Shown piece by piece: positions 1 to 25,633 of a DNA stretch of 32,000 nt; position 1 is the stretch's first letter; every line of letters begins with the position of its first letter. Position numbers and translations under genes: made by a program. A model generated the notes under the pieces. It saw only the letters and a list, made by a program, of their open reading frames with translations. It had not been told where the DNA came from and searched no databases. Location of the stretch: positions 60,001-92,000 of the forward strand of contig OY781871.1 in NCBI GenBank assembly GCA_963677105.1, written 5' to 3'. This stretch comes from Candidatus Saccharimonadota bacterium. Lineage in GTDB: Bacteria; Patescibacteriota; Gracilibacteria; UBA4473.

Positions 1-3000
1 AATTTTTGAATTCAAAATTGCGAGAATTACTTTCCCATCTCGAATTGCCAACACATCCATTTCGTTTGCCGTGTTTTTCAATGTGTCAACATCTCCCTGT
101 AAATCGGCATAAAACTCCTGTTGTTTTTTCAATACATCATTAAATTTTTGAGTTAAAAAAGCTTTTGCTTCTTGGTTTTTTTGTTCAGTAATTCCTGTTT
201 TTATTTCTTCAAGAGCAGCTAAGCTTCTCTTTAGTTCTTCCAAATTGTCCTCTCCAATTGCAATAACACCTGCTTGTTTTTCTATTTCAGGGTTTTCAGC
301 ACTTTCCCTCATTCTAGCAGTGGCCTTTTCTACTTCAGAATTCCATTGATTTGGAGTTGGATCTGTTAATGAATCTACTCGTTCTATTTCATCTGTCATA
401 TAAGACTGAAGCGATTCATATTTTAACTTTATCAATGTTCTTCCCAATGTTGCTGGCAACGATTTTATTCTTAATATTGTTCCCATTGAATTATTCAATG
501 AAAGTCGGATAACTAATCCTATTGCTGTCGCAGTGTTTGTGTTAGCAGTACATTCCTCTGTTGATTTATTCCATGTTCCATTTTCCAAACAATTACATCC
601 TAATTCCATCCATTTCATCTTCTCTTTATGCAACTTCTCTTTTGCGTCTTTTTTCCATTTTTTTAATTCTTCTTTGAGACGCTCAAATTGTCCATCCGGA
701 AAATAAGGATAATTTATGGTTATCTTTTTTCTTTTTACATCAACAAATGGAGATTTATTTAGACACGATAATGTTGGTTCTCCCTCCTCACACGGGATCG
801 ATTTAAATTTTGGAAATTTTATTTTGAATTTTGGAAATTTGAAATTCGTAAATTCTCTCCACTGATCTTGCACCCATTGACTCAATATATCTGCCGCTTT
901 TATTTGACTATTCGTTGGTAAACTTTTTCCTTTAATAATAATTGGAAGTCCTGATTGAAATGTAATTCCACTTCCTGAAGGCGCAAAGAGTTGTTGTAAA
1001 AATTCTTGTGCTGGTGTTGCTTCATTTGCTGGTTCTAAATCAGTACATGAAGTTTGTGTATCTTCCGATGATGATCCTGATTCAGAATTTCCTCCAGCAG
1101 ATGCTCCTCCACTACCAGAAGAAAATTGTGGAATAATCACAAAACATTGAGGAGGAAATGGAATTCCTGTTGGAGACATTGAAGGATCAATAACTGGTCC
1201 TCCACAAATTGCTATTCCTACTTGTAATGACGTCGTTGGAATAATATATAATCGAAATAATGAAGTTGGCATTGGACCTGCTCCCACTGGAGGAAGTTGC
1301 GGAGCTACCCAAAAAATCGGAAATCCAATCGCTGGAACAGGAATTGGTATTGCATATGGTGGGATATAAATACTTTGTGGTCCTGGAGCAAGAAACGCCA
1401 CTGATGGAATTGCATCCAACCAAGATGCTACTTTTTTAGCACCTCCCAACATGTTTAAAAGTGCTTCACCCACGGATGGTATAGCAAACATTATTGGTAA
1501 TCCATCATCTGTTTGTTCTGTACCTAAACAATCCAAAACATCATCGGCCGTTGCTTCTGCATCAAAATCTGATGGCAACAAATCAGGAAATACCTTTTTT
1601 GTTTCACGACTACTCATTCTTAAATATGGAGATGTCGGAGCATCTTTTACTGCGTCTGAACTTCTAGCAGGAACCGTTCCATTATTTTCCCCTGAAATAA
1701 ATTGTATTGTTTCAGCTGTTCCATCTGAATGCCATGCAACGGCTACATCATCTCGTGCATCATTTTTTTCAAAATCACTTACAAAATATCGTATCGGAAG
1801 AACTTCTTCCGCTATAGAATCCCAGTTAAAAACAATATTCGCATGAGCCGGAATATTTCCAATCGTAATTTGTATCACTTTCGGCAAAACTTTTATTTCG
1901 GGCAAAGTTTCACAAGAATCACATACAAATGAAGTTTCATCAAACTGAAATCCTACCGATTTAGGAAGAACAAACTCTCCTTCAGAATACGCTTGCTGAT
2001 TTCCCGATATAACAAGAGAATGTTTAAACCTTTGTCCTGGTACGACTGTATCAATTGAACCAGAATCTTCTGTATTCATCTTATACCAGGCATCAAATCG
2101 ACGATTATCTGAAAGTTGAACAAATGTTCGAGTTCCGTAAAAATCTAATTCGCCTGACCATGAATCAGTTGCATCAATTCCATTAAATCGAACTGAAAAT
2201 TCATCCAATTGTGGAAACTTATTTATCGTTGTTTGCGGAACACCTTGATCTTCTGCTGATAAATATTTTTCATCTATTTCATCAAATCGAAGTGCAAATG
2301 ATTCTACATACTGAGCCGAATACCAACCATCTTTTCTTCCATAAGCAAACCATAAAGTATTTGCTTCGTCCGAAAGAACTAAATCCGAATATTTATCTCC
2401 ATTCAATTCTGCTGTTTTAATATCAGTAATTTTTTTCCCAATTCCTAAATCCAATTTTTTACGAGACAACACTCCCTTCTCATTCGTATGTAAGATCAAA
2501 TTTCCTTCATCATTTAATTGAATGAAATTCAATAAATTCCCATAAGAATCCTTGTGAACTACAAGCGTTTTAACTCCGTCTGCAAAACGTAATAACAATC
2601 CTGCATCACGGAAATTGTCTCGTTGATGTTCGTCTTGATATAAAACAAAAAGCCTATTTCCAGTTCTTGGGAATATTTCTGCTCGACCATCTCCATTTAA
2701 ATCTGCAGATAAAACCTGATCAATCGCTCCAAATGAACTCGTCCATAATGATTTTCCTATATCGTCGGTAAATCCTACTGAATTCGTTTCATTTTCATCT
2801 GGAACTGAAATTGTAGGATCACCAAGCAATATCATCGCGTCGCTCGCAGCAATACGAACTGATTCCCCTGCTATGTTTCCAGCAGCAAATAAAGCTCCTG
2901 GTTTCCACGACGTTGTCCAACCAACTCCATCTTCCATCAAAGCATCTTCTGCAGAAACTTTTGCTGATCGTAATATTTTTTTAGGCGATTCTAGCTTTTC

Positions 3001-8806: not shown

Positions 8807-11800
8807 TTAATACACTTTCCCCTTAAAACTATCCATTAAGTCTTTCCAGTCAAAACTCTCATCTGTAAGCATTTTTTCTATGTTTCGACTAGAAAATACT
8901 TCCTGAGAAGCCTCTGCTTTTGTAAGGTCATATATTTTTGTACTTACATTTGCTTCCTTTTCACCACGTTTCACCGCCTTTAAGTTCTCAGAATTTTTTG
9001 CTTCTTTTGCCTCCGCTGTTTGCCCATTTTTCACAAGCCATTCGTTTTCATTTTGATAAATACTTTTAAATTCTGTTCGCCCTGAAACATCCAACAATTT
9101 ATCCAAGACTTTATTTGTAGCTTCAAATGAACCTCGTGCACACGGCGAATATTGCTCATGTTTGTTGAAATCTGAAGTCTGAAAAATAATTGGTTTACGT
9201 TCATTTAGGTTAATATTTCCTAATACTGAATGAAATAATATCGTCATTGCCTTCATACGATCAGCTACCTCTACGAAATTTCGTTCTCGAATTTTTGCCC
9301 ATTCTGGATTATCTTTTCCGTATTCAGCATCTCCTTTTCGAATATATTTCGAAATTCCGTTGAAGTACGGCACATATCCAGCCATAACATTACGCCAGAA
9401 GTCGGGAGTATATTTATCTTCATCTGTAGAAGTCGTATTCAACATTTTAGTGACTGATTCCATCGTTAATCCTGCTGCAAACAAAGCAGCATCATCGTGA
9501 TCAAAAGATTTCGTTCCGTTTCGCACCATTCGCTCTAGACGTGCACGAGACTCTTCTGATTGTAATACATATTCATAAAAGAATTCTTGTACATTTGTAC
9601 GAGCATCCTCAACTGAAAAGTTTCCACTTGTTCCAGAATCTAGCATGTCAGCCCACGCTTCATAATCTTCATATATCCATCCTCTTCTTTCTGCACCAGG
9701 CGTTCCTTTTGGTACAAATCTTCCGTCTTTTTTATATCCACTTTTATCAATAAAGAAATCAAAATACGGCATATTTGCCAATAAATCTCCGTTCAAACGA
9801 CCCAAAAAGTCCCGAGACAAAATTCCATGTTTCACTCCCATTATCAAAAAGTACCAACGAGAATCAAACATCGGACCTCCATTTAATTTTCCAAGCTCAA
9901 ATGCTTTTCGCAAGAAGAGTCCATATTTCGCCGGATCCGTATTTTCACGTTTATTATTTGCCCAATTTCGAAGCATGTTTTGTAAAATAATCCCACGCGC
10001 TTTCGGGTCATATTCAAATCGTTGAAAGTCCGCTGTAAATTCGTCCTCTTTGGATTTGATTTTTGATTCAAGTGAAGTATCCCATTGTCGAAATGTCTCA
10101 CGAGACCAAATAAACTCACACACATCTCGACATTTTTCCAAGATTTGAGAAAGTTCAAGGTTTATATCATTATCATTGAAAAACACAGCATTGTGAGAAA
10201 GTCTCATAAAGGTTTTCCATAACTTTGGATCATCCCAACGAAAAACTCCCTTTTCAATTAACAACCGAATACAAGCTTTTGCTTCATCTTGATCGTTTGT
10301 AGTGTATAAAGTTTCTTGTGTTTCCCACCATGGATCTTCATCCATTTCGGTTTCAATTTCTTTTACACGTGCTTCCTCTGTTTCTTGCGATTTTCGATGA
10401 AATTCTTTTCCCCATGGAGAAGTTCTCCCAAAAAAGGATACTCCAATATTTGCTATCGCTTGCTCACTTTTTCGTTCCCATCGACGAGAATGAACTTCAA
10501 TTGTTTGTTTTACCAATGAATACAAATCATGAATTGAAAATTTTTGATATTTTTTTACCGATCCCATTTTGTTTTTATCCCAATCCTCAATCCAACGAGC
10601 CATGCTTTCTGCTTGATTTTTTGCCTCATGAGACCAATCTGTAAATCCGCGAAACTGACTCATTTCTCCAAGTGCTGTTACACGTGACTCTGGTGATTTA
10701 TTATAATTTTTTAACCAATTCTTGAAAAAAGATGGTGACAAAAACTTCTTTGAACCATTTTCAAATACATCTAATTGATTGTCGTGACTCTCAATCATTT
10801 CTTTCATATGCATTGGATCCATTCCTCCATGACGTTCAGTAAATTCTTCTTCACTCAATCGATTCATATCTTTTTCTAATTTACTTTTCACAGAAATAAA
10901 ATTGGCTCTATAGCTTGAGAAATTTGATGCGAATTCTGATCGCATCTCTTCATATTTTCCACGAAAATCTTCTTTGTCTTCTGATGTGTCTGTAAAGAAT
11001 TCCCCTTTGTCCAAAAACTTAACCGTTTCGGTATCTTGTTCTAAATGAACATCTAAGTTTTTAGAATTTTCTGCAAATTTTCCATCATTAAAGTTAATGG
11101 TATTACTTAAAGCTTGTATTGCCTTTGGTAGAAGAGAAAAGATTTCTTCATCACCATAATATTTATATTCATTCTTTTTTGAATTTCGTTGAAATGAATT
11201 AATTCCTTTTTCAATTTCTAATAACCATCCTTCTGTCGTTTCTGAAATATTTTTCACAAACTCTTTCGCCAATTCTGAATCTTTGGGTAATAACTCTTCT
11301 AAAATTGTTGTATGATCTTTCAACAATTGTTTCAATCTATTTTTTATTTGTGGCCATTGAGCAAAGATCGAATCCAATTTTGATTTCAACCCTTTTAATT
11401 TTGATTTTTTTTCTACATTTGATTCAAGATCATTTAGTTCCTTATATCCTTCTGCTATTTCAAAAACTTTCACTTTCACACCTTCATCAAGAACTTTTTG
11501 TATTTCTTTTTCAACACTTTTCCCTTGAAATGCCATTTCTGTAAGAATATTTTTTCCTGGAGCCCAAATCGTTTTCTTTTCTCCAGACTGCATTTCTATT
11601 GTCATTTTCCCTCCATCTCCGTACCATTTTTTCCGTACTTCCCACGCTTGTTCTAACTTATCTGCTTCAGAATTATAGTGATCCGCCATTTCTGGTTTTT
11701 CTTCTCCTCTTTTTCGTAAAGCTTCAATAATCGCGACATTTCTTTCTTGTTCTGCTTGTATTCGTTTTACCGTATCTAGTTTTTCTGATTCATATTTTGA

Positions 11801-14098
11801 ATGTTCAGCTGCAACAACTGTTGGATCTTGTGTTGCCGGAGAAAGTCGTCCATGTAAACGATCCCAGTTCGAATAGAATTCATTTTGTTTGTCTCCAGAT
11901 ATTTTTCCTTTTACTTGAGAGAAAATTAATTCTCGATAATGCATTATTGCTCCTTCAAGAAGTTCTGATAATTGTTGTGGTTTCTGAAACTCATTTTGAA
12001 TATCAAATCCTTGTTGTTGTAATCGCTCAATTAAGTTTTCATACGACAATTGTTTGTCCAAGTCTGTGTACCACAACTCATAACGATCATCTGGAAAACT
12101 CAATTCATCAAAAACACCTACTAACGCACCTTCAAAAGCTTGTCGAAATTTTTGGATTTTTTCTTGTTCTGGACGATTTGAAATATATTCTTGAATGTCT
12201 TCCGCGAAATCTTCATTCCAAAGAACATCAAAATCCACAGCATTTAATTGTCGATCATTAAGCCGTTTTTGAATTCCACTCCAAAATTTCTCATGTGCTT
12301 CTCGAGCATATTTTTGTGGATCTGAAAAAATTTCATTCCATTCATCTCGTTCTTTTAGTTCTTTCACAAAGGTTTCTTGTGATTTTTTTAATTCCGCCTT
12401 TTTCTCTTCATATTCTTTCTTTTGAGACTCAAAATCTTCACTAAACGGCATTTTATTAATAGCTGATTCAGCTTCTTTTTCTTGTTTTTCAAGCTCTTCT
12501 TCATATTTTTTTAACCCAATATTCACCTCTTTTAACAGAGGAATATCTTCTTCTGGAGTTGCTGTAACTCCATAATTAGAAGTATTTGGAAGCTTTTCTT
12601 TTAATAAATCTTGAAACTCTTGAATTGTAGATTCTTTCTCTTCGAGAGAAGATTCCCCTGCTTCATATTTCTCTTGAATTGTTTTGAACAATGGAAGTGC
12701 TTCTTCCAATTGTATTTTATAATTTTCAATGTATACATCTTGATCTTCTTGATATTTCTGTTTTCGTTCAAGGTCTCTTTCGTCATCATTCAAATCCAAC
12801 TGCCCGTCTAAAACTTTTTGTCGTGCTTCAGCTGCTTGTACTTCAAATTTCACAATGTTATCCCATCGAGAAACAAGTTCTTCCACTTGAGAAAGCTGTT
12901 CTTCCCAACAAGTATTAATCGCATCTTCCCTTTTTTGTTTTGCTTCTAAATATTGCAACACTTCTGGAGCATCGGGTTTATTTTCTTTATGTCGTGCTAC
13001 TTCTTCATCCTTTACCAAATCATATTTTTCTTTTAGCTCTCGTAATTCTTTATTTATTGCATCCTTTGCAATTTCTTCTGGTGCAAGTTCTGCCCACTCT
13101 GTTTCTGAATATTTTGTAGGCAAATAGTCAGGATTATTTTTCAATTCATTCAACGCATGTAGATGAACTGGTAAAAAGGGTGATTGTTCTCGTGCAAATT
13201 GTAATAACTCAACTGATCGAGCTCTTCCAATAAATTTTGCTAATTCTTCAGGAGAAAATGTTGAAGTCAAATCTTCAATCATTTCCATATCTCCTGCTGC
13301 CATCCATTCATCAATAAATCCCCAACCCAAAACCATTGTTGGATCTTCAGGATTTTCTTTGATCGCAGCCATTGCTTCTTTTGCAAATGTACGAGCAGAA
13401 GCCCCATCACAATAATCAACCCAATCTTTACTATTTGGAAACATTCGGTAAATCGATGCGATGATAAGTTTCTCTTGTTTTGTTATTTTTTTTATAGCAC
13501 CTCGATTTGTATTATTTCCAGAAAGAGTATCTTTCACTTGTTCTGAAATTGATCCTGATTTTAATACATCAAGTGCCCAACCTAATAGATTTTCTTGTAC
13601 ATCATTGAAGACTATTTTTAATCGTGGATCATCGTGCACACGTGAACGCAATCGTCGATACAAAAGACTTGCTCGAATTGCCATTGATGGTGTCGTCAAC
13701 GATTTTTTAGAAAATCCAATCAACTCCTCTATTTGAGAATCAAGCACATTTTTTATTTGTTCTTGCATTTTTTTTGACAAAAGCGAAAACAACGGAGACT
13801 GTTCTATTTGCACCAACATGTGAGGCGGCAAATTTTTTGTTCCAGATTTTTGTTTTATAGATAAAAAATATCCAGCAATATCACGAAAATCTTTTTTCTG
13901 TTCTGGAGACAGATTTTTTGAATCATCTTCCATTGCTCGTAATTCACGAGTACTGAATTTCAATGGGTTTTTTAACTCCAAATCAGCCACTTCATTTTTC
14001 TCTGATTTGTTGACTCCTCCACACGAAATCCCGTCTAGCCACACCATTCGTGTTTGCCATCCGTTATTATCTCGTTGCCAGTGCAAGAAATCTCTCAT
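8807..14098 (-). CDS. Very large (1763 aa) Glu/Lys-rich hypothetical protein with no signal peptide and no TM segment
   Basis: This is a complete ORF with an ATG at 14096-14098. Long charged heptad-like stretches occupy about residues 330-1000 (for example ELRELKEKYDLVKDEE and KKYEEELEKQEKEAESA). The C-terminal third is Trp/aromatic-rich and globular (RWYFLIMGVKHGILSRDFLGRLNGDLLANMPYFDFF). I see no Walker or other catalytic motif. Confidence 0.9.
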   Translation of the reverse strand: MRDFLHWQRDNNGWQTRMVWLDGISCGGVNKSEKNEVADLELKNPLKFSTRELRAMEDDSKNLSPEQKKDFRDIAGYFLSIKQKSGTKNLPPHMLVQIEQSPLFSLLSKKMQEQIKNVLDSQIEELIGFSKKSLTTPSMAIRASLLYRRLRSRVHDDPRLKIVFNDVQENLLGWALDVLKSGSISEQVKDTLSGNNTNRGAIKKITKQEKLIIASIYRMFPNSKDWVDYCDGASARTFAKEAMAAIKENPEDPTMVLGWGFIDEWMAAGDMEMIEDLTSTFSPEELAKFIGRARSVELLQFAREQSPFLPVHLHALNELKNNPDYLPTKYSETEWAELAPEEIAKDAINKELRELKEKYDLVKDEEVARHKENKPDAPEVLQYLEAKQKREDAINTCWEEQLSQVEELVSRWDNIVKFEVQAAEARQKVLDGQLDLNDDERDLERKQKYQEDQDVYIENYKIQLEEALPLFKTIQEKYEAGESSLEEKESTIQEFQDLLKEKLPNTSNYGVTATPEEDIPLLKEVNIGLKKYEEELEKQEKEAESAINKMPFSEDFESQKKEYEEKKAELKKSQETFVKELKERDEWNEIFSDPQKYAREAHEKFWSGIQKRLNDRQLNAVDFDVLWNEDFAEDIQEYISNRPEQEKIQKFRQAFEGALVGVFDELSFPDDRYELWYTDLDKQLSYENLIERLQQQGFDIQNEFQKPQQLSELLEGAIMHYRELIFSQVKGKISGDKQNEFYSNWDRLHGRLSPATQDPTVVAAEHSKYESEKLDTVKRIQAEQERNVAIIEALRKRGEEKPEMADHYNSEADKLEQAWEVRKKWYGDGGKMTIEMQSGEKKTIWAPGKNILTEMAFQGKSVEKEIQKVLDEGVKVKVFEIAEGYKELNDLESNVEKKSKLKGLKSKLDSIFAQWPQIKNRLKQLLKDHTTILEELLPKDSELAKEFVKNISETTEGWLLEIEKGINSFQRNSKKNEYKYYGDEEIFSLLPKAIQALSNTINFNDGKFAENSKNLDVHLEQDTETVKFLDKGEFFTDTSEDKEDFRGKYEEMRSEFASNFSSYRANFISVKSKLEKDMNRLSEEEFTERHGGMDPMHMKEMIESHDNQLDVFENGSKKFLSPSFFKNWLKNYNKSPESRVTALGEMSQFRGFTDWSHEAKNQAESMARWIEDWDKNKMGSVKKYQKFSIHDLYSLVKQTIEVHSRRWERKSEQAIANIGVSFFGRTSPWGKEFHRKSQETEEARVKEIETEMDEDPWWETQETLYTTNDQDEAKACIRLLIEKGVFRWDDPKLWKTFMRLSHNAVFFNDNDINLELSQILEKCRDVCEFIWSRETFRQWDTSLESKIKSKEDEFTADFQRFEYDPKARGIILQNMLRNWANNKRENTDPAKYGLFLRKAFELGKLNGGPMFDSRWYFLIMGVKHGILSRDFLGRLNGDLLANMPYFDFFIDKSGYKKDGRFVPKGTPGAERRGWIYEDYEAWADMLDSGTSGNFSVEDARTNVQEFFYEYVLQSEESRARLERMVRNGTKSFDHDDAALFAAGLTMESVTKMLNTTSTDEDKYTPDFWRNVMAGYVPYFNGISKYIRKGDAEYGKDNPEWAKIRERNFVEVADRMKAMTILFHSVLGNINLNERKPIIFQTSDFNKHEQYSPCARGSFEATNKVLDKLLDVSGRTEFKSIYQNENEWLVKNGQTAEAKEAKNSENLKAVKRGEKEANVSTKIYDLTKAEASQEVFSSRNIEKMLTDESFDWKDLMDSFKGKVY

Positions 14099-14102
14099 TT
14101 AT

Positions 14103-14117
14103 TCCAGTAATTATACC
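14103..14117 (-). promoter_or_regulatory. -10-like box GGTATAATTACTGGA, 11 nt upstream of the 1763-aa gene ATG (implies a very short leader)
   Basis: The minus strand reads acGGTATAATTACTGGAataaATG. TATAAT is at 14110-14115. The box is near-identical to the one at 16608-16622. Confidence 0.4.
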
Positions 14118-14129
14118 GTATTTCATGTG

Positions 14130-14151
14130 AAAAAAACAGTGTTTAAAACAC
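14130..14151 (-). terminator. Weak candidate intrinsic terminator after the 797-aa gene
   Basis: The minus strand reads GTGTTTtAAACAC (an imperfect short hairpin, 14139-14151), then tg and a run of seven T (14130-14136). The stem is short and AT-rich. Confidence 0.2.
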
Positions 14152-14252
14152 ATATACAGTAGCGATAGTATTCAAAACATTGTTTTATAATATTTTATAA
14201 AAAATAAGATTCAAAAAGTATTCTTCTTTATGACGAATATTTCCCTATATAA

Positions 14253-16601
14253 TTATTCTTCTTTAGCATCCGTTTCGTTGACTAAAGCCACTTTACCTTC
14301 TCCATCAAGCGCAATTGTTTTGCCTTCTCCTTGGACTGCTCTAAATGCAGCCATGATTCTTTCATTCTTTTTAAATGCATCTACTTGATCCTGTGTTATA
14401 CCACTTTTCCCAATCAATTCGATGAGTACTGCAGCATAGTCTGCCGCCATATCTTCTGTTCTAATTCCATTAATATCATTTGTGTCCATTCCTTTTTCTG
14501 TATCTTCCCCACTAACACTAACATTAAACGTATTATTTGTGGTATTAATAGAACTTTTATCTACTGTTGAATTTTCTACTTTTTCTCTCAAACTTTCTTT
14601 CGTAGTTTCCTTTGAATCAGTTGTACTACTTGATCCACCACTATACGAACCTCCATAATTTGATTCTGTGGTAAAGAATACATCTCGCCCATCAAGTCCC
14701 AACGAAGAACGATTTGCTCGCACAGATTCTTCATATTTTTTCAAATCACCAGCCGCTTCTTTCCAAAGCCCAGCAAGTGTTCCACTTACTCGTGGATCAC
14801 TAGACCGCTCTAGAGCTTGTCCATATTCTTTACGATGACTTAATAATTCCTGAGAACTAGAAGCTTTAAATCCTAATTTTATTGCATCATCTACACTCGT
14901 TATAGTCGTATTAGATAAATTTCTTGCAAATTCACTTTGAGTAATACCAAATGCTTCAGCCATATTTGTTGCATTTGTTGTAGCCACTGTATCTTGTGCA
15001 CGCTTAATCATTGTTGGAGCCTGTAACACACTTCCCAAAGAAAATTTCTTTTCCTCTGTACCAGTTCCCACAGAGAACATTTGTCTATCAATTGTAACCA
15101 TTTTCCCAACACTTCCCGCCAGCATTTCGGCTCCAGATTGAACACCTTGAATTAATTTTTCTGCGACACTTCCTTCAACTGCCCAGAATGCTACTTTCCA
15201 AAAAAGTACAATCGTCGCAATTTGCCATAAAAACGCATATTCATTTTGTCCTAACTGAGACAATGCCGGACCAAAAACAAATGTTTGTCCTGATAAATCT
15301 CCTTGTATTTCTATCATTGCAGACATCATTACAAAACCAACAGCAAATGCTGCCGCAACTTTCAGTGGCATAATTAAATGCGTAACAATTTTTGAGACAA
15401 TCTCATTTCCTTTTCCTCCATCTACTCCCAAAATTGAAGATCCAATAAGTAAAGGAGAAAACACTAATGAAATCCATAAGACAATTAATCGTGCAATCAT
15501 CGCAATGAAAACGGCTATCAATGCAACAATAAATGCAAGTGCCATAATTGCAGAAAATAATGTATTCGTAACAACAGAACCTAAGTTTTTAATTTCTGCA
15601 CCAAGCGCTGGTAGACGTTCTAAATGCATAAACGTGGAACCAAATGCCGCAAATAAATTTTGTCCTGGCTCACTACTTTTCTCAAAAATAGCTCCGAATT
15701 TCTGTGGCTGTAACAAAAACACACACGTATCATCTGTTGCTGCTTCTGTATCATAGTTTGCACTCCCCCATTTCACCCAATTTTGACAAAACAAATCGTT
15801 TATTTGTTCCGTAAATCCTCGACAAACGAAATAATCATCTCCGTTTTTTGCAACAACATTACAGAGTTTTGGATCATCTCCAGCTGGGATGACATAATCT
15901 TTTCTACACGCTGCATTCACATCTTCTCTAATAAAATCTTCCCATTTATCTGAACAACTTCCTTCATTTACCACATCTCCATCTTCACCAAGATCACTTT
16001 TTAAATCAGAATTATTAAATATTTCTAGCTGTCTATCTTCAGGAACTTTTTTCCAAGTTTTCTCTGCAATTAATCTTCCTCCAATTTTTGAATTTGATTC
16101 CAAACGATGATCTGCAATTCCTAAAATTGCAATTGTTCCAATATTAATAGCATCAATCACTACTTTGAATCCTAATAATGAAAAATTAATCGCTATAATT
16201 GCTATAATCAATTTTGGTAATTTTTCTTTAATAGTCCAATTCCCTCCTTCTCCTCCAAGTCCTAATGATGAAAATAAATTTGAAAAAGCAAGAAACAGTA
16301 ATACCCCAACAAATAAAATATTCGTAAGATTTCGAACCCACATCCACATTGGCTGAATAGCTCTCATTGCTAAAGAACCTGTAATCATTTCTGTTCCAAG
16401 CAATTCTCCAAAAAATTTCAACATTAATAATGCTAAAAATGTCAAAATATCAATCACTACTCCTGCAATCTGTGCCAATCCTTTCAATGGATCTGATCCT
16501 TGTGTTGTATTTTCAGCAAATGTTACGACAGGAATCAATAAAAGCCCGACAACTAAAATCGTCGGAATGTATGCACGAAAACGAATAAATAATTTTTTCA
16601 T
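14253..16601 (-). CDS. Polytopic membrane protein (about 782 aa from the ATG at 16601) with a signal peptide, about 7-8 TM segments, a 6-Cys extracytoplasmic loop and a roughly 300-aa soluble C-terminal tail
   Basis: From the ATG at 16601 the protein begins MKKLFIRFRAYIPTILVVGLLLIPVVTFA|EN. Hydrophobic helices include ILFVGVLLFLAFSNLF, LIIAIIAINFSLLGF, LFSAIMALAFIVALIAVFIAMIARLIVLWISLVF and FLWQIATIVLFWKVAFWAV. The loop carries C231, C247, C262, C275, C287 and C308 (15723-15956). The GTG-started 15-aa extension in the track (to 16646) overlaps a promoter-like element. Confidence 0.85.
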   Translation of the reverse strand: MKKLFIRFRAYIPTILVVGLLLIPVVTFAENTTQGSDPLKGLAQIAGVVIDILTFLALLMLKFFGELLGTEMITGSLAMRAIQPMWMWVRNLTNILFVGVLLFLAFSNLFSSLGLGGEGGNWTIKEKLPKLIIAIIAINFSLLGFKVVIDAINIGTIAILGIADHRLESNSKIGGRLIAEKTWKKVPEDRQLEIFNNSDLKSDLGEDGDVVNEGSCSDKWEDFIREDVNAACRKDYVIPAGDDPKLCNVVAKNGDDYFVCRGFTEQINDLFCQNWVKWGSANYDTEAATDDTCVFLLQPQKFGAIFEKSSEPGQNLFAAFGSTFMHLERLPALGAEIKNLGSVVTNTLFSAIMALAFIVALIAVFIAMIARLIVLWISLVFSPLLIGSSILGVDGGKGNEIVSKIVTHLIMPLKVAAAFAVGFVMMSAMIEIQGDLSGQTFVFGPALSQLGQNEYAFLWQIATIVLFWKVAFWAVEGSVAEKLIQGVQSGAEMLAGSVGKMVTIDRQMFSVGTGTEEKKFSLGSVLQAPTMIKRAQDTVATTNATNMAEAFGITQSEFARNLSNTTITSVDDAIKLGFKASSSQELLSHRKEYGQALERSSDPRVSGTLAGLWKEAAGDLKKYEESVRANRSSLGLDGRDVFFTTESNYGGSYSGGSSSTTDSKETTKESLREKVENSTVDKSSINTTNNTFNVSVSGEDTEKGMDTNDINGIRTEDMAADYAAVLIELIGKSGITQDQVDAFKKNERIMAAFRAVQGEGKTIALDGEGKVALVNETDAKEE

Positions 16602-16607
16602 GAAAAA

Positions 16608-16643
16608 TCTAGTAATTCTACCAAATAATTGAGAAAAAATCAA
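16608..16643 (-). promoter_or_regulatory. Candidate promoter of the 797-aa membrane protein gene
   Basis: On the minus strand, TTGATT (16638-16643) is followed by a 17-nt spacer and TGgTAGAAT (extended -10, TAGAAT at 16615-16620), 13 nt before the ATG at 16601. The box GGTAGAATTACTAGA parallels 14103-14117. Confidence 0.4.
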
Positions 16644-16695
16644 CACTAAAAGCCGATTAATTCAATATATCAATAAATTTATATCGAATCATTTT

Positions 16696-18366
16696 CTATT
16701 TATTTTCTCCTGCTATTTTTTCTTTCGCTTCTTTTCGAATTTCTGTCAATTTTGATCGTATAATTTCTGGTAATTGTTCCGCTTCATATTCACCATCTTT
16801 TTCTTTCTCTTCTCGTTTTACAAATTTTTCAGACTGAGTAATGAGAATTTTATGCTCCTCTGATGAAAACTTTTTCCAAATTAATTTTTGTTCCGCTTTC
16901 GTAAATGTTTTTTCATCTTGAAAGTGCGTCAATATTCCTTTTGCTTTATTCTTTTTTAGAAATGCGCTAAGCGCCGCTAATGGCTTTGCTCCAAACTTTA
17001 TCGTTCTTTTCGTCTTTTCTGGAATAGATTTTTTATAGAAATCAGGTTGTGCCAATTTTTGCAATTTCATAACACCAGAAATTGTAAGAAAGAAAATCAC
17101 TCCGCTCGCTAATGCCATTCCTGCTCCTCCCATTCCAAGAAAACGTCTTATTCCTCTTTTTGGACGAGACAAACTAAATCCCTTTGCTCCTTTTGAAGCA
17201 GTTCTGTCGATAAACATTTTTGATAAGTCAACTTCAGGAAGAGGTGTTCCACTTTGTTTTTGTTTACTCATCTCTGTCTGTAATTTAGACCATAAACTTG
17301 AATCTTCTTTGAAAAAATCCAACATTTCCCGTTCTGCATTTGTTGCTAAAACACGACGAATTTCACTCGGAACCGCTTCTCTATTCCACAATTTTACTCG
17401 AAACATTGCTAATTCTTTTTCATCCAATCGGTGTTCTGCCATTTGAAGAATAAATGTAGCAGCACTTTTTATATTTCTGTCTGAAAATTCTGGAGATTGT
17501 CCCAATTCTTTCGCGTCTTGATATGAATCCATTTCATTCATTACATTTCTCAAATTGTCATCTCCGATTTCTAATCCTTTTGCTCGCAACTCAAACGCAT
17601 TTTGATTTCCAGTAGCCAACTCATATGCAAAATCATGTGATTCCGTTTGCCCTGTCGCTAAATATTTATAAATCGGCGTTGTTCCTGGTGATTGAAATTT
17701 CTTTGAACCGGTTTGTTTTAATACGCTCCACACTTCTTCTGGATTATCAATTAAGCTCACCACTAAATTTCCTGTTCCTGTTATCACTGGCGCAATTACT
17801 TCTTCTCCAGCTGTTCTCAATGCAATTGCTAATCCGCTTGTTATTTTTGGATGAGTTACTGTAGCAGCTATTGCCGCCCACGTAGAAGCTTTTTGTAATC
17901 GTTTCATCATATTTCCTTCAGTGCTTCCATACCCAAATGTTCCCACAACTGCTCCTATTTTTAAACTTTCTTGCCATCCATTTGGAATTATTTGATTGTA
18001 GCTTTTATTCCAATTACTTATTCGAAGAGCAAATCTTTTTCCAATATTATCTATATTCTGACCATATACTTCCGGCGTCAATTGACGAGCCTTGCTTTCC
18101 GGTAATTCTTGAGCAATTGTATGACGAATATCATCATAAATTTTATCTCCAACTTCAATTCCCTCTTTTATTTTCTTTTCATTTTCAACTGATTGAGAGA
18201 GTTGTTGTTTTTCTTCTGTTTCAATTTTTTGAGAAAGATCATTTAAATCTTTTTTTATTGGCTCCGTAGAAATCAATTCTTGTGTTTCTTTTTTTTCAAC
18301 ATTCAAAATCCCCTTTCCAGATTGCTCTGAAGAAAAGAAGTTATAATGTGAAAAAAGAAGTTTCAT
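16696..18366 (-). CDS. Hypothetical 556-aa protein with a single TM segment near residue 420 and a Lys-rich C-terminal tail
   Basis: This is a complete ORF with no N-terminal signal peptide. It has a Gly/Ala-rich hydrophobic patch (IGAVVGTFGYGS, WAAIAATVTHPKITSGLAIAL) and the TM segment FLGMGGAGMALASGVIFFLTISGVM. It starts 4 nt after the stop of the upstream 182-aa gene. Confidence 0.8.
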   Translation of the reverse strand: MKLLFSHYNFFSSEQSGKGILNVEKKETQELISTEPIKKDLNDLSQKIETEEKQQLSQSVENEKKIKEGIEVGDKIYDDIRHTIAQELPESKARQLTPEVYGQNIDNIGKRFALRISNWNKSYNQIIPNGWQESLKIGAVVGTFGYGSTEGNMMKRLQKASTWAAIAATVTHPKITSGLAIALRTAGEEVIAPVITGTGNLVVSLIDNPEEVWSVLKQTGSKKFQSPGTTPIYKYLATGQTESHDFAYELATGNQNAFELRAKGLEIGDDNLRNVMNEMDSYQDAKELGQSPEFSDRNIKSAATFILQMAEHRLDEKELAMFRVKLWNREAVPSEIRRVLATNAEREMLDFFKEDSSLWSKLQTEMSKQKQSGTPLPEVDLSKMFIDRTASKGAKGFSLSRPKRGIRRFLGMGGAGMALASGVIFFLTISGVMKLQKLAQPDFYKKSIPEKTKRTIKFGAKPLAALSAFLKKNKAKGILTHFQDEKTFTKAEQKLIWKKFSSEEHKILITQSEKFVKREEKEKDGEYEAEQLPEIIRSKLTEIRKEAKEKIAGENK

Positions 18367-18370
18367 GTTT

Positions 18371-18919
18371 TTATAATTTAAATATTCGAATCCATTTATC
18401 TAAAACATCTTCCTGTCGATCTTCTAGTTCTTCAATACCAAATGTGGCTAAATGTTCTCGAAAAAAATCTGGCTCTAAATTCCCCATTTGCAAAGATAAT
18501 GTTGTTTTATTTCTTCCTCGTAATTCAATTTTTAATATTTCAACTCCTTCTTCATATACAAACCAAAAACCCATAATATTTTCTTTCAAAATATATTTTT
18601 TTTCTCCTATCAAAATTGCTTTTTCAAAAACAGTCGTATCATGCAATTCGTTTCCATTTCGATGAGTCCAAAAATACACCGCTGCAGCAATAAAAAATGT
18701 AAGCGACATAAGCCATCCCCATTTGGGATCACTTAATGCTGACCAAGTTGCACCACCAAATAAAACTCCACAAAACAAAACATACCATAACCAACCGCGA
18801 TGATTCGGCTGATGATCAAACGCTCTCCATGCAAACACTGGTTTGCCCGGATCAAATGGTTGATTTTTCAATGATTTTGAATTCATTTTTTTTAGAGAAA
18901 TTTCCCGCGAGTATACCAT
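18371..18919 (-). CDS. Small membrane protein (182 aa) with two TM helices and a C-terminal soluble beta-rich domain
   Basis: The TM helices are GWLWYVLFCGVLFGGATWSAL and WGWLMSLTFFIAAAVYFW. They are followed by AILIGEKKYILKENIMGFWFVYEEGVEILKIELRG. The ATG is at 18917-18919. Confidence 0.75.
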   Translation of the reverse strand: MVYSREISLKKMNSKSLKNQPFDPGKPVFAWRAFDHQPNHRGWLWYVLFCGVLFGGATWSALSDPKWGWLMSLTFFIAAAVYFWTHRNGNELHDTTVFEKAILIGEKKYILKENIMGFWFVYEEGVEILKIELRGRNKTTLSLQMGNLEPDFFREHLATFGIEELEDRQEDVLDKWIRIFKL

Positions 18920-18952: not shown

Positions 18953-19912
18953 CTAAGTTAGAGAAACCTTTCCTTCAAACTTCACTCCAGCTCGTACCAA
19001 CTTTTGACTTAAATCCAATCCTTGAAGCTCACAATTTTCATCAATTACGGAGGTGGCCACATGACAATCTCGTAAAATTGTTCCTGGATAAACGATTACA
19101 TCATGTAACGTACAATTTTCAACAAGAGAATTTTCTCCTAAAAACACTCGACCAGAAAATTTACAATGTTTATCTTTTGCATTTTCCCCTTTAACAACAG
19201 GTTTCGTTTGTAACGATTTATGCGCTCCTAAATACGTCTCAAAACTTCCAATATCAAACCATTCTCCTCCTACTTTTAATCCGGAAACAGGAATTCCTTG
19301 CTTTAATAATTCTGGGAAAATTCCTCCAAGCGCATCTGGTGATTTTTTCGCATATTCATGTAAAACCGGAAGTATTTGCTTTCCCAACGCTAAAAATCCA
19401 GTAGAAACAATGTCCGATTTTGGTTTCTCTGGCTTTTCCTCAAATCCAATGACCGTTTCTCCAGACAATTCTACAACACCAAATTTTCGTGCTTCATCTC
19501 TGTTTTTCACTTGTCGTAATGCAATTCGTGCTGAATCTGAAGCGCAAGTAAGATCGGATATTTGTAATTCTGGAAGTAAATTATCACCCGCTAAAATGAG
19601 TAAATCATCATTAATATTTAATTCTCGACACGCAACCGAAATTGCACCCAACGCTCCTAGCTTTTCCCCATCCGAATGTGCATCTTCACAAAAAATTTCA
19701 ACATTCTCTCTTCCCAGTTTTTTTAATTCCGTCCGAAAAGCTGTTTCAAATTTTTTATTAGTTAATAATGCAACGTCTGAATCTAATGGAATTCTGTCTA
19801 AAAGATGTGCCAAAATTGTTTTTCCAGCCAGCAATAATAATGGTTTCGCGTGCTTTTCTGACAAAGGCCATAATCGCGTCGCAAATCCACCTGCCAAAAT
19901 AAGAATTTTCAT
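18953..19912 (-). CDS. Sugar-phosphate nucleotidyltransferase with a C-terminal left-handed beta-helix (NTP_transferase family, 319 aa)
   Basis: The protein begins MKILILAGGFATRLWPLSEKHAKPLLLLAGK, which contains the G-x-G-x-R-L-x-P-L signature. The C-terminal hexapeptide-like region is GENSLVENCTLHDVIVYPGTILRDCHVATSVIDENCEL. The start was moved to the ATG at 19910-19912, which forms an ATGA overlap with the dnaE stop. Confidence 0.85.
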   Translation of the reverse strand: MKILILAGGFATRLWPLSEKHAKPLLLLAGKTILAHLLDRIPLDSDVALLTNKKFETAFRTELKKLGRENVEIFCEDAHSDGEKLGALGAISVACRELNINDDLLILAGDNLLPELQISDLTCASDSARIALRQVKNRDEARKFGVVELSGETVIGFEEKPEKPKSDIVSTGFLALGKQILPVLHEYAKKSPDALGGIFPELLKQGIPVSGLKVGGEWFDIGSFETYLGAHKSLQTKPVVKGENAKDKHCKFSGRVFLGENSLVENCTLHDVIVYPGTILRDCHVATSVIDENCELQGLDLSQKLVRAGVKFEGKVSLT

Positions 19913-22900: not shown

Positions 22901-23403
22901 ACATTTTGTATTTTTTCTAATACCTTTTGTGATTGAATTTCTCCAAAATCTCGAAAAGCTCTTCCAATAAGTCCTCCTGTACCACTTGATAAAACTAAAA
23001 GTCCTTCTGAGTGTGATTGTAATAACTCCCAATCTACACGAGGTTTGTAATACATACCTTCGAGTGACGCTTGAGAAATTAAAAACAAAAGATTTTTCCA
23101 ACCAATTGAGTTTTTTGCCAACAAAACAATGTGTCCTTCTCTACCATCAATCCCGGCTCGTTTTTCAAAACGAGAATCTGTGGCAACTGCAATTTCTACT
23201 CCTAAAATCGGCTTCACTCTTGTTCCTTTTGCTTTTTGAAAAAACTCAACAAGTCCATATCCTGCGCTTACATCTGTCAATGCTACTGCTGGACAACCTA
23301 ATTTTTCTGCACTCTCTAAAACTCTTTCTGGAGACATCGCTGCTTCTAGAATTGAGTACCACGAATGAGTGTGGAGATTTACAAAATTTGTGTCGGGGGT
23401 CAT
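19909..23403 (-). CDS. dnaE: DNA polymerase III alpha subunit
   Basis: PHP domain FVNLHTHSWYSILEAA, GPGRGSAAGSLVSFLLQITTIDPL, catalytic MPDIDIDF and FNRSHAVCYARIAYETAYLRAHYP. The length is 1164 aa. Confidence 0.97.
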   Translation of the reverse strand: MTPDTNFVNLHTHSWYSILEAAMSPERVLESAEKLGCPAVALTDVSAGYGLVEFFQKAKGTRVKPILGVEIAVATDSRFEKRAGIDGREGHIVLLAKNSIGWKNLLFLISQASLEGMYYKPRVDWELLQSHSEGLLVLSSGTGGLIGRAFRDFGEIQSQKVLEKIQNVFGKENVYLEFIARDYPEQQELNAFLVRLAEKTGTLTVASSDARYALASDEEACDTLVCIGKNQQVNDPGRFKFAERNWFKSWEEICNDLLNVPAEVLEQSRKNTLAVADLIDLELEFNQSLLPNFEVPEGETEASHLRNNCEKMISKLYPDADAKYKTVIQDRLDYELEIIGSMGFEAYFLIVQDFINFARENGIAVGPGRGSAAGSLVSFLLQITTIDPLEYELLFERFLNPERISMPDIDIDFSDERRHEVLQYVTEKYGVEKVSKVCTFGTLAAKAAIKDVGRAQGVPYSDMNAFTKLLPTKPGLTLDDALDFPDFKAKLDANPSLKKVFDVAKKLEGCVRHVGVHACAVIIGHEDLRENSPLQWAPGADAIKITQFPYQQLESIGLLKMDFLGLRNLSILERTIQHIKQNCGEEIDLSQIPIDDALTFEKVFAAGETTGVFQFESSGMRRYLKELKPTEFEDLVAMNALYRPGPMEYIPTYIAGKHGTESVEFLDPVLEPILKKTYGIAVYQEQIMRIAQDFAGFTLGQADILRKAIGKKKIKLLEEQRVKFLEGAEKMKREKKTAEKMFDDIIVPFAGYGFNRSHAVCYARIAYETAYLRAHYPEEFMAAMMTTDRNNTDRIVMEMNECNSMNIEILPPSVNESGSHFTVITSDQPDLEGNIEPKKIRFGLSAIKGLGEETVDQIMAERNTGGEFTSLQNFAERVPAKLVNKKTLEALGFSGAFDLFGNRKAVVDSLDDLSNFAREFQDKKEAGQMGLFGGTDATAVKFTLRDGEATKDDILRWERESLGLYVSEHPLKGMSRYFEKFGRLIHSFSEEDLGQQVVIHGLVTDVRKILTRRGKNMAVLTIEDTSGKMELAVFPMIFDKTPSAVFEVDAFVRIRGKIEERDGAFNCIAEEIRVGDLAKIQAVHVFADADEKSETTPFEFVIPSSATTGQVERVKKLIKERKSEAGYARECVLKFKENTVKVPFLVDVSAHLESELKSVFTEKK

Positions 23404-23428
23404 TGCTTAAAGTGTACCGAAAAGAGAT

Positions 23429-23477
23429 CAAAGTGCAAAGTTCAAAGTGCAAAGTTCAAAGTGCAAAGAACAAATCA
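23429..23477. repeat. Heptanucleotide tandem array (CAAAGTG CAAAGTT)x2.5 plus two decayed units, 26-75 nt upstream of the dnaE ATG
   Basis: Read directly: CAAAGTG CAAAGTT CAAAGTG CAAAGTT CAAAGTG CAAAGAA CAAATCA. Confidence 0.9.
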
Positions 23478-23591
23478 AATAAATGTCTTTTTCAATAGAT
23501 TCACAAAGCTTTCGTCAAAACAACTCAATAAAAAGTTATTTGTACTTTGTAGTTTCATTTTTTATATTTGGAGAATAGAAAATCTGTTTGA

Positions 23592-24659: not shown

Positions 24660-24708
24660 TCTTAAAAATTAGTATTTGTTTGTATATAAATGTTACACAA
24701 ATCGGGTG

Positions 24709-24737
24709 ATTATACCAAATTATGAAAATTATTTCAA
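24709..24737 (-). promoter_or_regulatory. Strong sigma70-like promoter for pilT
   Basis: On the minus strand, TTGAAA (24732-24737) is followed by a 17-nt spacer and TGgTATAAT (TATAAT at 24709-24714, with the TG extension), about 50 nt upstream of the pilT ATG. Confidence 0.5.
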
Positions 24738-24765
24738 CTTCTCAAATACACGAAAAACTTCTTAT

Positions 24766-25560: not shown

Positions 25561-25633
25561 TACGTCTATAAAACCGAATATCTTTTAACATAAAAAATAA
25601 CTCTAGTCAAAAGAGATCTTTATACATTCGTCC

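What the first reader, a model, noticed from the sequence alone, without database searches (positions are those of the whole stretch)
1..18919. Co-directional block of five large or unknown envelope genes may form an uncharacterised cell-surface or host-contact system
Reading 5'->3' on the minus strand, downstream of dnaE and the nucleotidyltransferase gene, the block contains five genes:
- a 182-aa two-TM protein
- a 556-aa single-TM protein, starting 4 nt after the previous stop
- a 797-aa polytopic membrane protein with a Cys-rich external loop
- a 1763-aa coiled-coil-rich protein without any export signal
- the signal-peptide adhesin-like giant of at least 2883 aa

That is about 19 kb, nearly 60 percent of the window, spent on five proteins with no recognisable enzymatic motif. 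All are predicted to sit in, at or beyond the membrane, except the 1763-aa protein. The mix of membrane platform proteins, a huge cytoplasmic scaffold-like protein and a giant exported adhesin resembles an envelope-spanning apparatus more than a set of unrelated genes. This is a hypothesis from gene context only.
Basis: inference. Interest (0 to 1): 0.8.

Follow-up and report, generated by a model that had tools for sequence, protein, structure and literature searches.

The report
Conserved uncharacterised envelope gene module
Five co-directional genes in this ultra-small (Gracilibacteria/Peregrinibacteria-type) bacterium are real; four form a gene module kept together across many distant relatives, the fifth is a giant surface protein added in this lineage, none resembles a known protein family, and their function is still unknown.

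Summary
All five minus-strand ORFs exist at the stated coordinates with the stated features.

None of them has a significant Pfam, NCBIfam or PDB match.

- The order g182, bitopic protein, g797, g1763, giant recurs in Gracilibacteria/Peribacteria genomes at 25-60% identity.
- A core (g182-like, two bitopic proteins, g797-like, g1763-like) recurs in Peregrinibacteria in unrelated genomic neighbourhoods.
- The giant is orthologous only within the window's lineage. It is an add-on, not part of the core.

The g797 family is large (2,933 cluster representatives at E<=1e-3) and has no Pfam family.

The only lead to a known system is a type IV secretion VirB6-like reading of g797. It did not reach significance in any test, and no VirB4 lies nearby.

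The C-terminal third of g1763 models as a generic all-alpha solenoid.

Best reading: a previously undescribed membrane platform plus cytoplasmic scaffold, coupled in this lineage to a Sec-exported surface protein of about 3,900 aa. A host-contact function is inferred, not shown.

The parts
18371..18919 (-). g182: small membrane protein with an N-terminal cytoplasmic stretch, a TM hairpin (aa ~43-62 and 68-90) and a ~90-aa C-terminal domain. The family ends in a near-invariant ...DLWIRALKL. It is the first gene of the conserved core.
   Evidence: ORF. Family alignment of 16 sequences. Homologues lie upstream of g797 homologues in 18 Gracilibacteria loci and in Peregrinibacteria loci (E 1e-9 to 1e-16). 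Only sub-threshold Pfam hits to TM-hairpin DUFs. No PrgI/VirB3 similarity.
16696..18366 (-). g556: fast-evolving bitopic protein with a ~400-aa N-terminal part, a TM at aa 409-433 and a Lys/Glu-rich tail. It starts 4 nt after the g182 stop.
   Evidence: The gene at the same position in other loci (550-950 aa, one dominant TM about two-thirds along) forms one transitively linked family. Short and long forms are homologous (hhalign Prob 99.1, E 1.4e-18). No detectable homology to the two bitopic proteins at this position in Peregrinibacteria.
14253..16646 (-). g797: polytopic membrane protein, the anchor of the module. TM1 or signal anchor at aa 25-43; TM2-4 at aa 60-175; extracytoplasmic Cys-rich loop at aa ~180-355 (window 15582-16109); TM5-8 at aa ~360-490; ~300-aa low-complexity tail. 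The likely true start is the ATG at 16601.
   Evidence: Invariant polar residues lie inside TM helices: R105, N109, N123, K140, N154, D165, R386, K429. The family has 2,933 cluster representatives at E<=1e-3 and 566 at E<=1e-30. No Pfam or NCBIfam family.
8807..14098 (-). g1763: large protein with no TM or signal peptide. Conserved N-terminal region (aa 1-350), variable Glu/Lys-rich helical region (aa ~350-600), and the most conserved block at aa ~1200-1650 (window 9149-10501), an all-alpha solenoid-like domain with an invariant D-H-D-D at aa 1533-1536 (window 9491-9502).
   Evidence: Homologues lie immediately downstream of g797 homologues in 14 Gracilibacteria loci and in Peregrinibacteria loci (E 1e-23 to 1e-35). 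The Foldseek PDB search returned only generic HEAT/ARM solenoids; best E 0.015, TM 0.12. No PDB or Pfam sequence hit.
1..8649 (-). Giant exported protein, cut by the window edge. 2,883 aa are seen; orthologues are ~3,900-3,940 aa. It has a signal-peptide-like N-terminus, a conserved N-terminal domain (aa 1-430; window 7360-8649), Ig-like and FG-GAP-like regions, and a Pro-rich hydrophobic stretch from aa 2430 (window ~1362 downwards).
   Evidence: Orthologues lie directly after the g1763 homologue in 11 of 12 loci with room for it; aa 1-430 and aa 680 onward align at 23-64% identity. The N-terminal domain has no Pfam or PDB match. It is not adjacent to the Peregrinibacteria modules.
6610..7353 (-). 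Array of about ten Cys-rich repeats of ~26-29 aa (C-x-D-G-x-x-N-x-D-E-T-G-I-D-C-G-G-x-x-C-x-x-C) within the giant, aa 433-680. It is a lineage-specific insertion.
   Evidence: Motif matches. DNA tandem repeat at 6664-7346, period 153-159, 69-73% matches. The closest orthologues skip it: window aa 432 to 679 corresponds to L001 aa 447 to 452.

Best explanation
The block is a conserved, previously undescribed envelope-associated gene module of the Gracilibacteria/Peregrinibacteria branch of the Patescibacteria (CPR).

Shown:
- Three protein families are kept in this order, with one or two fast-evolving bitopic proteins between the first two, across lineages that share only 23-25% identity and have different flanking genes. 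The families are g182 (small TM-hairpin protein), g797 (polytopic membrane protein with a disulfide-type external loop and invariant polar residues inside its TM helices) and g1763 (large protein with no export signal; its modelled C-terminal part is all-alpha).
- In the window's own lineage, a Sec-type exported protein of about 3,900 aa, with a conserved N-terminal domain, always follows.

Inferred:
- g182, g556 and g797 form a membrane platform.
- g1763 docks on the platform's cytoplasmic face as a scaffold, or as an enzyme using its invariant DHDD site.
- The giant's conserved N-terminal domain is held at the outer face, most plausibly by the Cys-rich loop of g797. Its long Ig-like/FG-GAP body would then project as a surface fibre for contact with other cells.
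- The polar residues in the g797 helices suggest it does more than anchor. It may conduct or translocate something.
For: - ORFs and topology.
- Synteny in 28 genome loci from Gracilibacteria/Peribacteria/Altimarinota MAGs: g182 lies upstream in 18 loci. g1763 lies downstream in 14 of 17 loci with enough sequence. The giant follows in 11 of 12 loci with room for it.
- The same core order occurs in Peregrinibacteria-type contigs with unrelated neighbours such as rpsF-ssb-rpsR, purL, GT2/Bac_transf, LysM-M23, thrS and RND efflux genes.
- The g797 family is large and keeps polar residues inside its TM helices.
- The giant has a conserved N-terminal domain and orthology along its length.
- g1763 has no TM or signal peptide, and its C-terminal third models as a helical solenoid.
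- Gene spacing is tight: 4 nt between g182 and g556, and 49-157 nt elsewhere. No terminator-like site falls in any intergenic gap on the coding strand.
- Giant membrane or surface proteins are thought to mediate host attachment in the related predator Vampirococcus (PMC8080830).
Against: - No physical interaction, co-expression or localisation was tested.
- Both structure models are only moderate: mean pLDDT 62 and 68.
- The giant is absent beside the module in Peregrinibacteria, and L015 and L022 lack it. The core therefore works without it, and its link to the core may be lineage-specific or only positional.
- g797 paralogues of about 870 aa sit alone among housekeeping genes, so the family can act outside the module.
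- In the Gracilibacteria loci, PilT, dnaE and NTP-transferase are also syntenic, so part of the conservation is plain genomic inertia.
- A host-contact role is an analogy, not a result.
Confidence: 0.45

Rival explanations
1. The core is the missing, extremely diverged membrane sub-assembly of the Patescibacteria type IV secretion system. g797 would be VirB6/TrbL-like, g182 VirB3/PrgI-like, the bitopic proteins VirB8/VirB10-like, and the giant an adhesin analogue of PrgB. The VirB4 ATPase would be encoded elsewhere.
For: - The top Foldseek PDB hit of the g797 model is TrwI/VirB6 of R388 (7o3v_J), and six more TrwI chains are in the top 50.
- hhalign against PrgH, Tn916 Orf15, TrwI and an 8-sequence VirB6 profile always aligns the same g797 segment (aa ~351-460, 'SPLL' helix) to the central VirB6 helix with its G/A-P-L-F motif. 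The score rises with the profile, to E 0.013.
- NCBI names one homologue (P0020, MCF7846972.1) 'type IV secretion system protein', the same generic name given to TrwI.
- One family member hits NF045848, 'MMCAP2_0566 family conjugal transfer protein', at E 8e-4.
- PMC12102498 reports that VirB6 is undetected in Gracilibacteria and that VirB3 and TrsD are unlinked from virB4 there.
Against: - Nothing reaches significance: Foldseek E 0.56 with TM 0.17-0.31; hhalign probabilities 0.1-3.3%.
- No Pfam TrbL/VirB6 hit in 23 + 10 family members at E<=1.
- g182 shows no PrgI similarity.
- No VirB4, VirD4 or lytic transglycosylase lies in the window or in the loci for which Pfam calls were available.
- g1763 has no counterpart in any T4SS.
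Confidence: 0.17
2. The core is an envelope-biogenesis or cell-architecture machine and not a host-contact device. Possible roles include export or assembly of a wall polymer or S-layer, or a division or shape scaffold. g797 would be the transporter-like component and g1763 a cytoskeletal or enzymatic partner. The giant would simply be a neighbouring surface protein.
For: - Invariant polar and charged residues lie inside the g797 TM helices.
- There is a weak LMBR1-like hit in one homologue, E 3e-5 and below the family cutoff.
- Sugar-nucleotide and glycosyltransferase genes lie nearby: NTP_transferase directly upstream in the window lineage and GT4 at 30813-31943, and GT2, Bac_transf and DUF4012 upstream in L046. 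BacA and LysM-M23 genes lie upstream in L033, L034 and L047.
- The core persists without the giant.
- The module is present once per locus in small genomes, like a housekeeping function.
Against: - No homology to any known flippase, glycosyltransferase, Mur/Fts/Mre or S-layer secretion component.
- The neighbouring envelope genes differ from locus to locus.
- The giant's adjacency is nearly invariant within the window's lineage, and its N-terminal domain is its most conserved part.
Confidence: 0.2
3. The five genes are functionally unrelated hypothetical genes. Their adjacency reflects slow genome rearrangement in a small, streamlined genome.
For: In the Gracilibacteria loci the flanking housekeeping genes (SecA, PilT, dnaE, NTP-transferase) are conserved in order too.
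Against: - The g182, g797, g1763 order is retained at 23-25% identity in Peregrinibacteria contigs, where every flanking gene differs.
- All genes are co-directional and tightly spaced.
Confidence: 0.05

Closest known systems
VirB6/TrbL-family polytopic subunit of type IV secretion systems (TrwI of R388; PrgH of pCF10; Orf15 of Tn916 / TcpH type)
   Same: g797 is a polytopic inner-membrane protein with a large extracytoplasmic loop and a long cytoplasmic tail, similar in size to the Orf15/TcpH type. It is preceded by a small two-TM protein and by bitopic proteins, as VirB3 and VirB8 precede or follow VirB6. TrwI is the top, though non-significant, fold hit.
   Different: There is no significant sequence, profile or fold match. 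No VirB4 or VirD4 ATPase or hydrolase lies in the neighbourhood. It is followed by a 1,300-2,000-aa cytoplasmic protein that no T4SS has.
Giant membrane/surface proteins of CPR predators and epibionts (e.g. the 1,392-4,163-aa proteins of Vampirococcus lugosii, PMC8080830)
   Same: The giant is a very large Sec-exported protein from a small CPR genome. It has sub-threshold Ig-like (invasin D3) and FG-GAP/integrin-like matches. In the literature such proteins are presumed to give a fibrous surface and host attachment.
   Different: Those proteins were described individually, not as part of a conserved operon-like module with dedicated membrane partners. The giant here has an unannotated, conserved 430-aa N-terminal domain. 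No homology to the Vampirococcus proteins was tested.
Gram-positive conjugation adhesin plus channel arrangement (PrgB with the Prg/Pcf T4SS of pCF10)
   Same: A large surface adhesin gene is co-transcribed in the same direction as genes for small membrane proteins and a polytopic channel protein (one search shows the pCF10 layout).
   Different: PrgB is LPXTG-anchored and 1,305 aa, and its system contains VirB4, VirD4, a hydrolase and a relaxase. None of these is present here. PMC12102498 found no PrgB-like adhesins in Patescibacteria.

Membership tests
T4SS VirB6/TrbL (PF04610; PrgH; Orf15/TcpH) | Polytopic inner-membrane protein (at least 5 TM) with a large extracytoplasmic loop | tested here: met
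   Hydropathy and the AF2 model show about 7-8 TM helices and an aa 180-355 loop holding all six Cys.
T4SS VirB6/TrbL (PF04610; PrgH; Orf15/TcpH) | Significant sequence or profile similarity to a VirB6-family model | tested here: not met
   No Pfam or NCBIfam hit for g797 or for 23 + 10 family members. hhalign gave E 0.54 vs PrgH, E 0.13 vs Orf15, E 0.36 vs TrwI, and E 0.013 (Prob 3.3%) vs an 8-sequence VirB6 profile.
T4SS VirB6/TrbL (PF04610; PrgH; Orf15/TcpH) | Fold match to a solved VirB6 (TrwI in 7o3v, 8rt9, 8rtd) | tested here: inconclusive
T4SS (any class) | Genomic linkage to the signature ATPase VirB4 (and usually VirD4 or a hydrolase) | tested here: not met
   The window's other genes are NTP-transferase, DnaE, PilT, an acyltransferase, SecA, GT4 and three unknowns. 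No VirB4/AAA_10 or T4SS family appears in the precomputed Pfam lists of L033-L035 and L044-L049 or in neighbours of the paralogue loci. Whether virB4 lies elsewhere in the genome could not be checked.
T4SS VirB3/PrgI | Small two-TM protein with profile similarity to PrgI/VirB3 | tested here: not met
   g182 has the TM hairpin, but hhalign vs PrgI gives Prob 0.14 over 8 columns. Its Pfam hits are only sub-threshold TM-hairpin DUFs. It also carries an extra ~90-aa C-terminal domain.
Type IV pilus machinery | Module genes linked to pilus ATPase or pilin genes | tested here: not met
   A bona fide PilT (TIGR01420, 394 bits against a cutoff of 319) lies at 23592-24659. It is separated from the module by dnaE and NTP-transferase, and it is absent from the Peregrinibacteria module loci.
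Ig-like / FG-GAP (integrin-type) bacterial adhesins | Pfam-significant Big/invasin or FG-GAP/VCBS repeats in an exported protein | tested here: inconclusive
   For the giant, FG-GAP_3 scores 19.9 bits (cutoff 26.9), Invasin_D3 16.8 bits (cutoff 33) and FG-GAP 14.3 bits (cutoff 22.1). All are below threshold. The signal-peptide-like N-terminus is read from the sequence. No structure model was made for this protein.
HEAT/ARM alpha-solenoid scaffolds | Repetitive helical-hairpin solenoid fold with a significant structural match | tested here: inconclusive
   The g1763 C-terminal model is all-alpha (pLDDT 68). The best Foldseek hits are importin-13, APC subunits and exportin at E 0.015-0.1 but TM only 0.10-0.14.

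The most novel reading that the evidence does not exclude
The g182, bitopic, g797, g1763 core is a new kind of envelope-spanning machine specific to the Gracilibacteria/Peregrinibacteria radiation. g797 would be a new channel-forming membrane family. g1763 would be its cytoplasmic scaffold or enzyme, using the invariant DHDD site. In this lineage the machine would deploy or anchor a ~3,900-aa surface fibre that makes the physical contact with host or prey cells on which these reduced-genome bacteria depend.
Probability: 0.3. Interest if true: 0.85.

Novelty: categorically new. Interest (0 to 1): 0.62.

Why it matters
Gracilibacteria and Peregrinibacteria have small genomes (about 1 Mb here) and are thought to live off other cells. 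The molecular basis of that dependence is known only in outline, from work in Saccharibacteria on type IV pili and a T4SS.

This block spends about 19 kb, roughly 2% of the 962-kb source contig, on proteins with no known relatives. Its core is retained across deep divergence, which argues for an important function.

- If the core is an envelope machine, it gives concrete, testable candidates for the host-contact apparatus of this branch. It also defines at least three new protein families, one with nearly 3,000 cluster representatives and no Pfam family.
- If g797 proves to be the 'missing' VirB6 of Gracilibacteria, it fills a gap noted explicitly in the 2025 survey of Patescibacteria T4SS (PMC12102498).

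Tried and rejected
- **Exact-sequence look-ups** of the window proteins (g797, g1763, P0001) found no contig on record. The full giant and what lies beyond it in the source genome therefore could not be read.
- **Two metagenome scans** for the giant's C-terminal part found nothing.
- **tblastn of the g797 TM core** against 72,556 plasmids found no match even at E 10.
- **Alternative genetic code:** retranslating with code 25 (UGA=Gly) did not explain loci lacking g1763 or the giant.
- **PDB sequence and profile searches** for g797, g1763, the g1763 C-terminal profile and the giant's N-terminal profile gave only noise.
- **Promoter and terminator scans** were uninformative. Promoter-like sites were fewer than in shuffles, and there was no intergenic terminator on the coding strand.
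- **PilT as the module's ATPase:** rejected, because it is not linked to the module in Peregrinibacteria.
- **FtsK next to a g797 paralogue in L005 as a coupling-protein analogue:** rejected. It has the full FtsK 4TM/alpha/gamma architecture and is the housekeeping FtsK.
- **Literature searches** (papers read) found no description of this module.
Full report
**1. Observation**

The window has about 35% G+C with a strongly negative GC skew over the first 25 kb. The minus strand carries the five ORFs exactly as described:
- g182 at 18371-18919.
- g556 at 16696-18366, whose ATG lies 4 nt after the g182 stop.
- g797 at 14253-16646.
- g1763 at 8807-14098.
- An open frame from the ATG at 8649 to the window edge, 2,883 aa.

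- g182 has a TM hairpin.
- g556 has one strong TM, at aa 409-433.
- g797 has about 7-8 TM helices, and all six of its Cys lie in the aa 180-355 loop.
- g1763 has no hydrophobic segment and is 22% Lys+Glu.
- The giant has a signal-peptide-like N-terminus.

Upstream on the same strand lie an NTP-transferase gene, dnaE, a PilT-family ATPase (TIGR01420, above cutoff) and an acyltransferase gene. secA is divergent. None of the five proteins has a Pfam or NCBIfam hit above threshold.

One small correction: M16 of g797 is nearly invariant in the family, so the true start is probably the ATG at 16601.

**2. Origin**

The g1763 and g797 proteins are on record once, from a 962-kb NCBI/ENA contig. Their relatives come from MAGs labelled Candidatus Gracilibacteria, Peribacteria, Altimarinota and Peregrinibacteria. 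This is therefore a Patescibacteria (CPR) genome that uses the standard genetic code. Retranslation with code 25 changed nothing.

**3.

A degenerate-pattern scan of one genome per GTDB species, using a 23-sequence g797 alignment, returned 28 loci. BLAST of all window proteins against the six-frame ORFs of these loci gave the following:
- g182 homologues lie upstream in 18 loci.
- A bitopic protein of 550-950 aa lies between g182 and g797.
- A g1763 homologue (1,054-2,091 aa) lies immediately downstream in 14 of 17 loci that have enough sequence.
- An orthologue of the giant lies directly after that in 11 of 12 loci with room for it.

The two closest metagenome contigs show the same order, with giants of 3,901 and 3,942 aa. 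The proteins at the g556 position evolve fast but form one family. The short and long forms are homologous (hhalign Prob 99.1, E 1.4e-18).

In these loci PilT, dnaE and NTP-transferase are also syntenic, so this set alone cannot separate function from inertia.

**4. The decisive extension**

More distant g1763 and g797 relatives (20-25% identity), named Peregrinibacteria where named, were looked up on their contigs. In seven distinct contexts the same order recurs:
- a g182-like protein of 165-194 aa,
- a bitopic protein of 491-558 aa,
- a second bitopic, tail-anchored protein of 409-592 aa,
- a g797-like protein of 748-896 aa,
- a g1763-like protein of 1,266-1,423 aa.

Homology of the three conserved families was verified with phmmer: E 1e-9 to 1e-16 for g182, about 1e-30 for g797, and 1e-23 to 1e-35 for g1763.

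The flanking genes differ completely from those in the window. They include rpsF-ssb-rpsR, purL, GT2/Bac_transf, LysM-M23, thrS and RND efflux genes. Conserved order in unrelated neighbourhoods at this divergence is strong evidence for a functional module.

The giant is not adjacent in these contexts. It is an addition specific to the window's lineage. Exceptions also exist. g797 paralogues of about 870 aa sit alone among housekeeping genes, and L015 keeps only g182, the bitopic protein and g797.

**5. What the parts look like**

*g797.* An exhaustive HMMER search with the family profile found 2,933 cluster representatives at E<=1e-3 and 566 at E<=1e-30. None of ten second-tier members has a Pfam domain. 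The alignment shows invariant polar and charged residues inside predicted TM helices (R105, N109, N123, K140, N154, D165, R386, K429) and two invariant Cys in the external loop. I read this as channel- or transporter-like and not as a passive anchor. That is an inference.

*g1763.* Its most conserved block is aa 1200-1650. An AF2 model of aa 1000-1763 (pLDDT 68) is entirely helical. Foldseek returns only generic HEAT/ARM solenoids with TM 0.10-0.14. An invariant D-H-D-D at aa 1533-1536 is retained even in the Peregrinibacteria homologues and could be a metal or catalytic site.

*Giant.* Its N-terminal 430 aa are its best-conserved part across orthologues, at 35-64% identity, and match nothing in Pfam or the PDB. 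The rest aligns with orthologues from aa 680 onward. An array of about ten Cys-rich repeats at aa 433-680 is visible as a DNA tandem repeat at 6664-7346. It is an insertion absent even from the closest orthologues.

**6. Comparison with known systems**

The only lead is type IV secretion.

In favour:
- NCBI names one g797 homologue 'type IV secretion system protein'.
- One family member hits a Mycoplasma 'conjugal transfer protein' model at E 8e-4.
- The top Foldseek PDB hit of the g797 model (pLDDT 62) is TrwI/VirB6 of R388, and six more TrwI chains are in the top 50.
- hhalign against PrgH, Tn916 Orf15, TrwI and an 8-sequence VirB6 profile built here always aligns the same g797 helix pair (aa ~351-460) to the central VirB6 helices.
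- The 2025 survey of Patescibacteria T4SS reports that VirB6 is undetectable in Gracilibacteria, and that VirB3 and TrsD are unlinked from virB4 there (PMC12102498).

Against:
- Nothing is significant. Foldseek gives E 0.56 with TM at most 0.31. The best hhalign result is E 0.013 with Prob 3.3%.
- g182 does not resemble PrgI.
- No VirB4 or VirD4 ATPase or hydrolase occurs in the window or in the loci checked for it.
- g1763 has no T4SS counterpart.

Membership in the VirB6 family is therefore not established. The defining homology test was not met, and the fold test was inconclusive.

Giant surface proteins are a recognised theme in the related predator Vampirococcus, but there they were described as individual genes, not as part of a module (PMC8080830). 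A metaproteogenomic study of groundwater Gracilibacteria mentions secretion systems and a VCBS adhesin, but not this block (PMC11452946). I found no description of the module in three full-text searches.

**7. Interpretation**

The best-supported statement is that g182, the bitopic protein(s), g797 and g1763 form a conserved, previously undescribed envelope-associated module of the Gracilibacteria/Peregrinibacteria branch. In the window's lineage it has acquired a tightly linked, Sec-exported surface protein of about 3,900 aa.

The following steps are inference from topology, conservation pattern and analogy:
- that the three membrane proteins form a platform;
- that g1763 docks on its cytoplasmic side;
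- that the giant's conserved N-terminal domain is held at the g797 loop, so that its body projects as a contact fibre.

I give this composite reading about 0.45. The rivals are a hyper-diverged T4SS membrane sub-assembly (about 0.17), an envelope-biogenesis or cell-architecture machine unrelated to host contact (about 0.2) and mere positional inertia (about 0.05).

**8. Verdict**

It is only partly supported, for two reasons. The five-gene unit is really a four-family core plus a lineage-specific giant. An apparatus or host-contact function remains untested.

Interest is moderate to high for CPR biology. It defines new, widely conserved families and gives concrete candidates for the cell-contact machinery of a branch for which none is known. 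No mechanism has been shown.

Noticed in passing
window 6610-7353 (minus strand; giant aa 433-680): About ten tandem Cys-rich repeats of 26-29 aa (C-x-D-G-x-x-N-x-D-E-T-G-I-D-C-G-G-x-x-C-x-x-C) are also visible as a DNA tandem repeat of period 153-159. The array is an insertion absent from the closest orthologues (L001, L002) and has no Pfam match.
   Followed up: partly
window 9491-9502 (g1763 aa 1533-1536): An invariant D-H-D-D cluster lies in the conserved all-alpha C-terminal domain and is retained in Peregrinibacteria homologues at 20-25% identity. It may be a metal-binding or catalytic site in a protein otherwise read as a scaffold.
   Followed up: no
window 16601-16646: The listed GTG start of g797 is probably too far upstream. 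M16 (ATG at 16601) is nearly invariant across the family, which would make the protein 782 aa.
   Followed up: partly
window 18953-28338: The order secA (divergent), pilT, dnaE, NTP-transferase upstream of the module is itself conserved in about ten Gracilibacteria/Peribacteria loci. The listed NTP-transferase ORF overlaps dnaE by 106 nt, but homologues align only from aa ~33. Its real start is probably later, so there may be no overlap.
   Followed up: partly
window 28410-30879 (minus strand): Three consecutive ORFs of 156, 398 and 283 aa have no Pfam or NCBIfam match. They lie between secA and a GT4 glycosyltransferase gene (30813-31943).
   Followed up: no
L005, L006, L007, L017, L019-L021, L029: g797 paralogues of about 870 aa (41-43% identity to g797) occur without g182, g1763 or the giant, among housekeeping genes (FtsK, PurH, AcrB/HlyD, AlaRS, an M50 protease). 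The family therefore also acts outside the module.
   Followed up: partly
L047 19796-22466 (also L048, L049): In a 1.2-Mb Peregrinibacteria-type contig, a 4,075-aa protein with Big_5, CarboxypepD_reg and SLH domains lies 3 kb downstream of the module, after thrS and an SMC_N gene. It is a giant that lies near the module but is not adjacent to it.
   Followed up: no
window 18371-18919 and alignment A4: The g182 family ends in a near-invariant C-terminus (E-x-L-x-D-L-W-I-R-A-L-K-L). This looks like a docking peptide.
   Followed up: no
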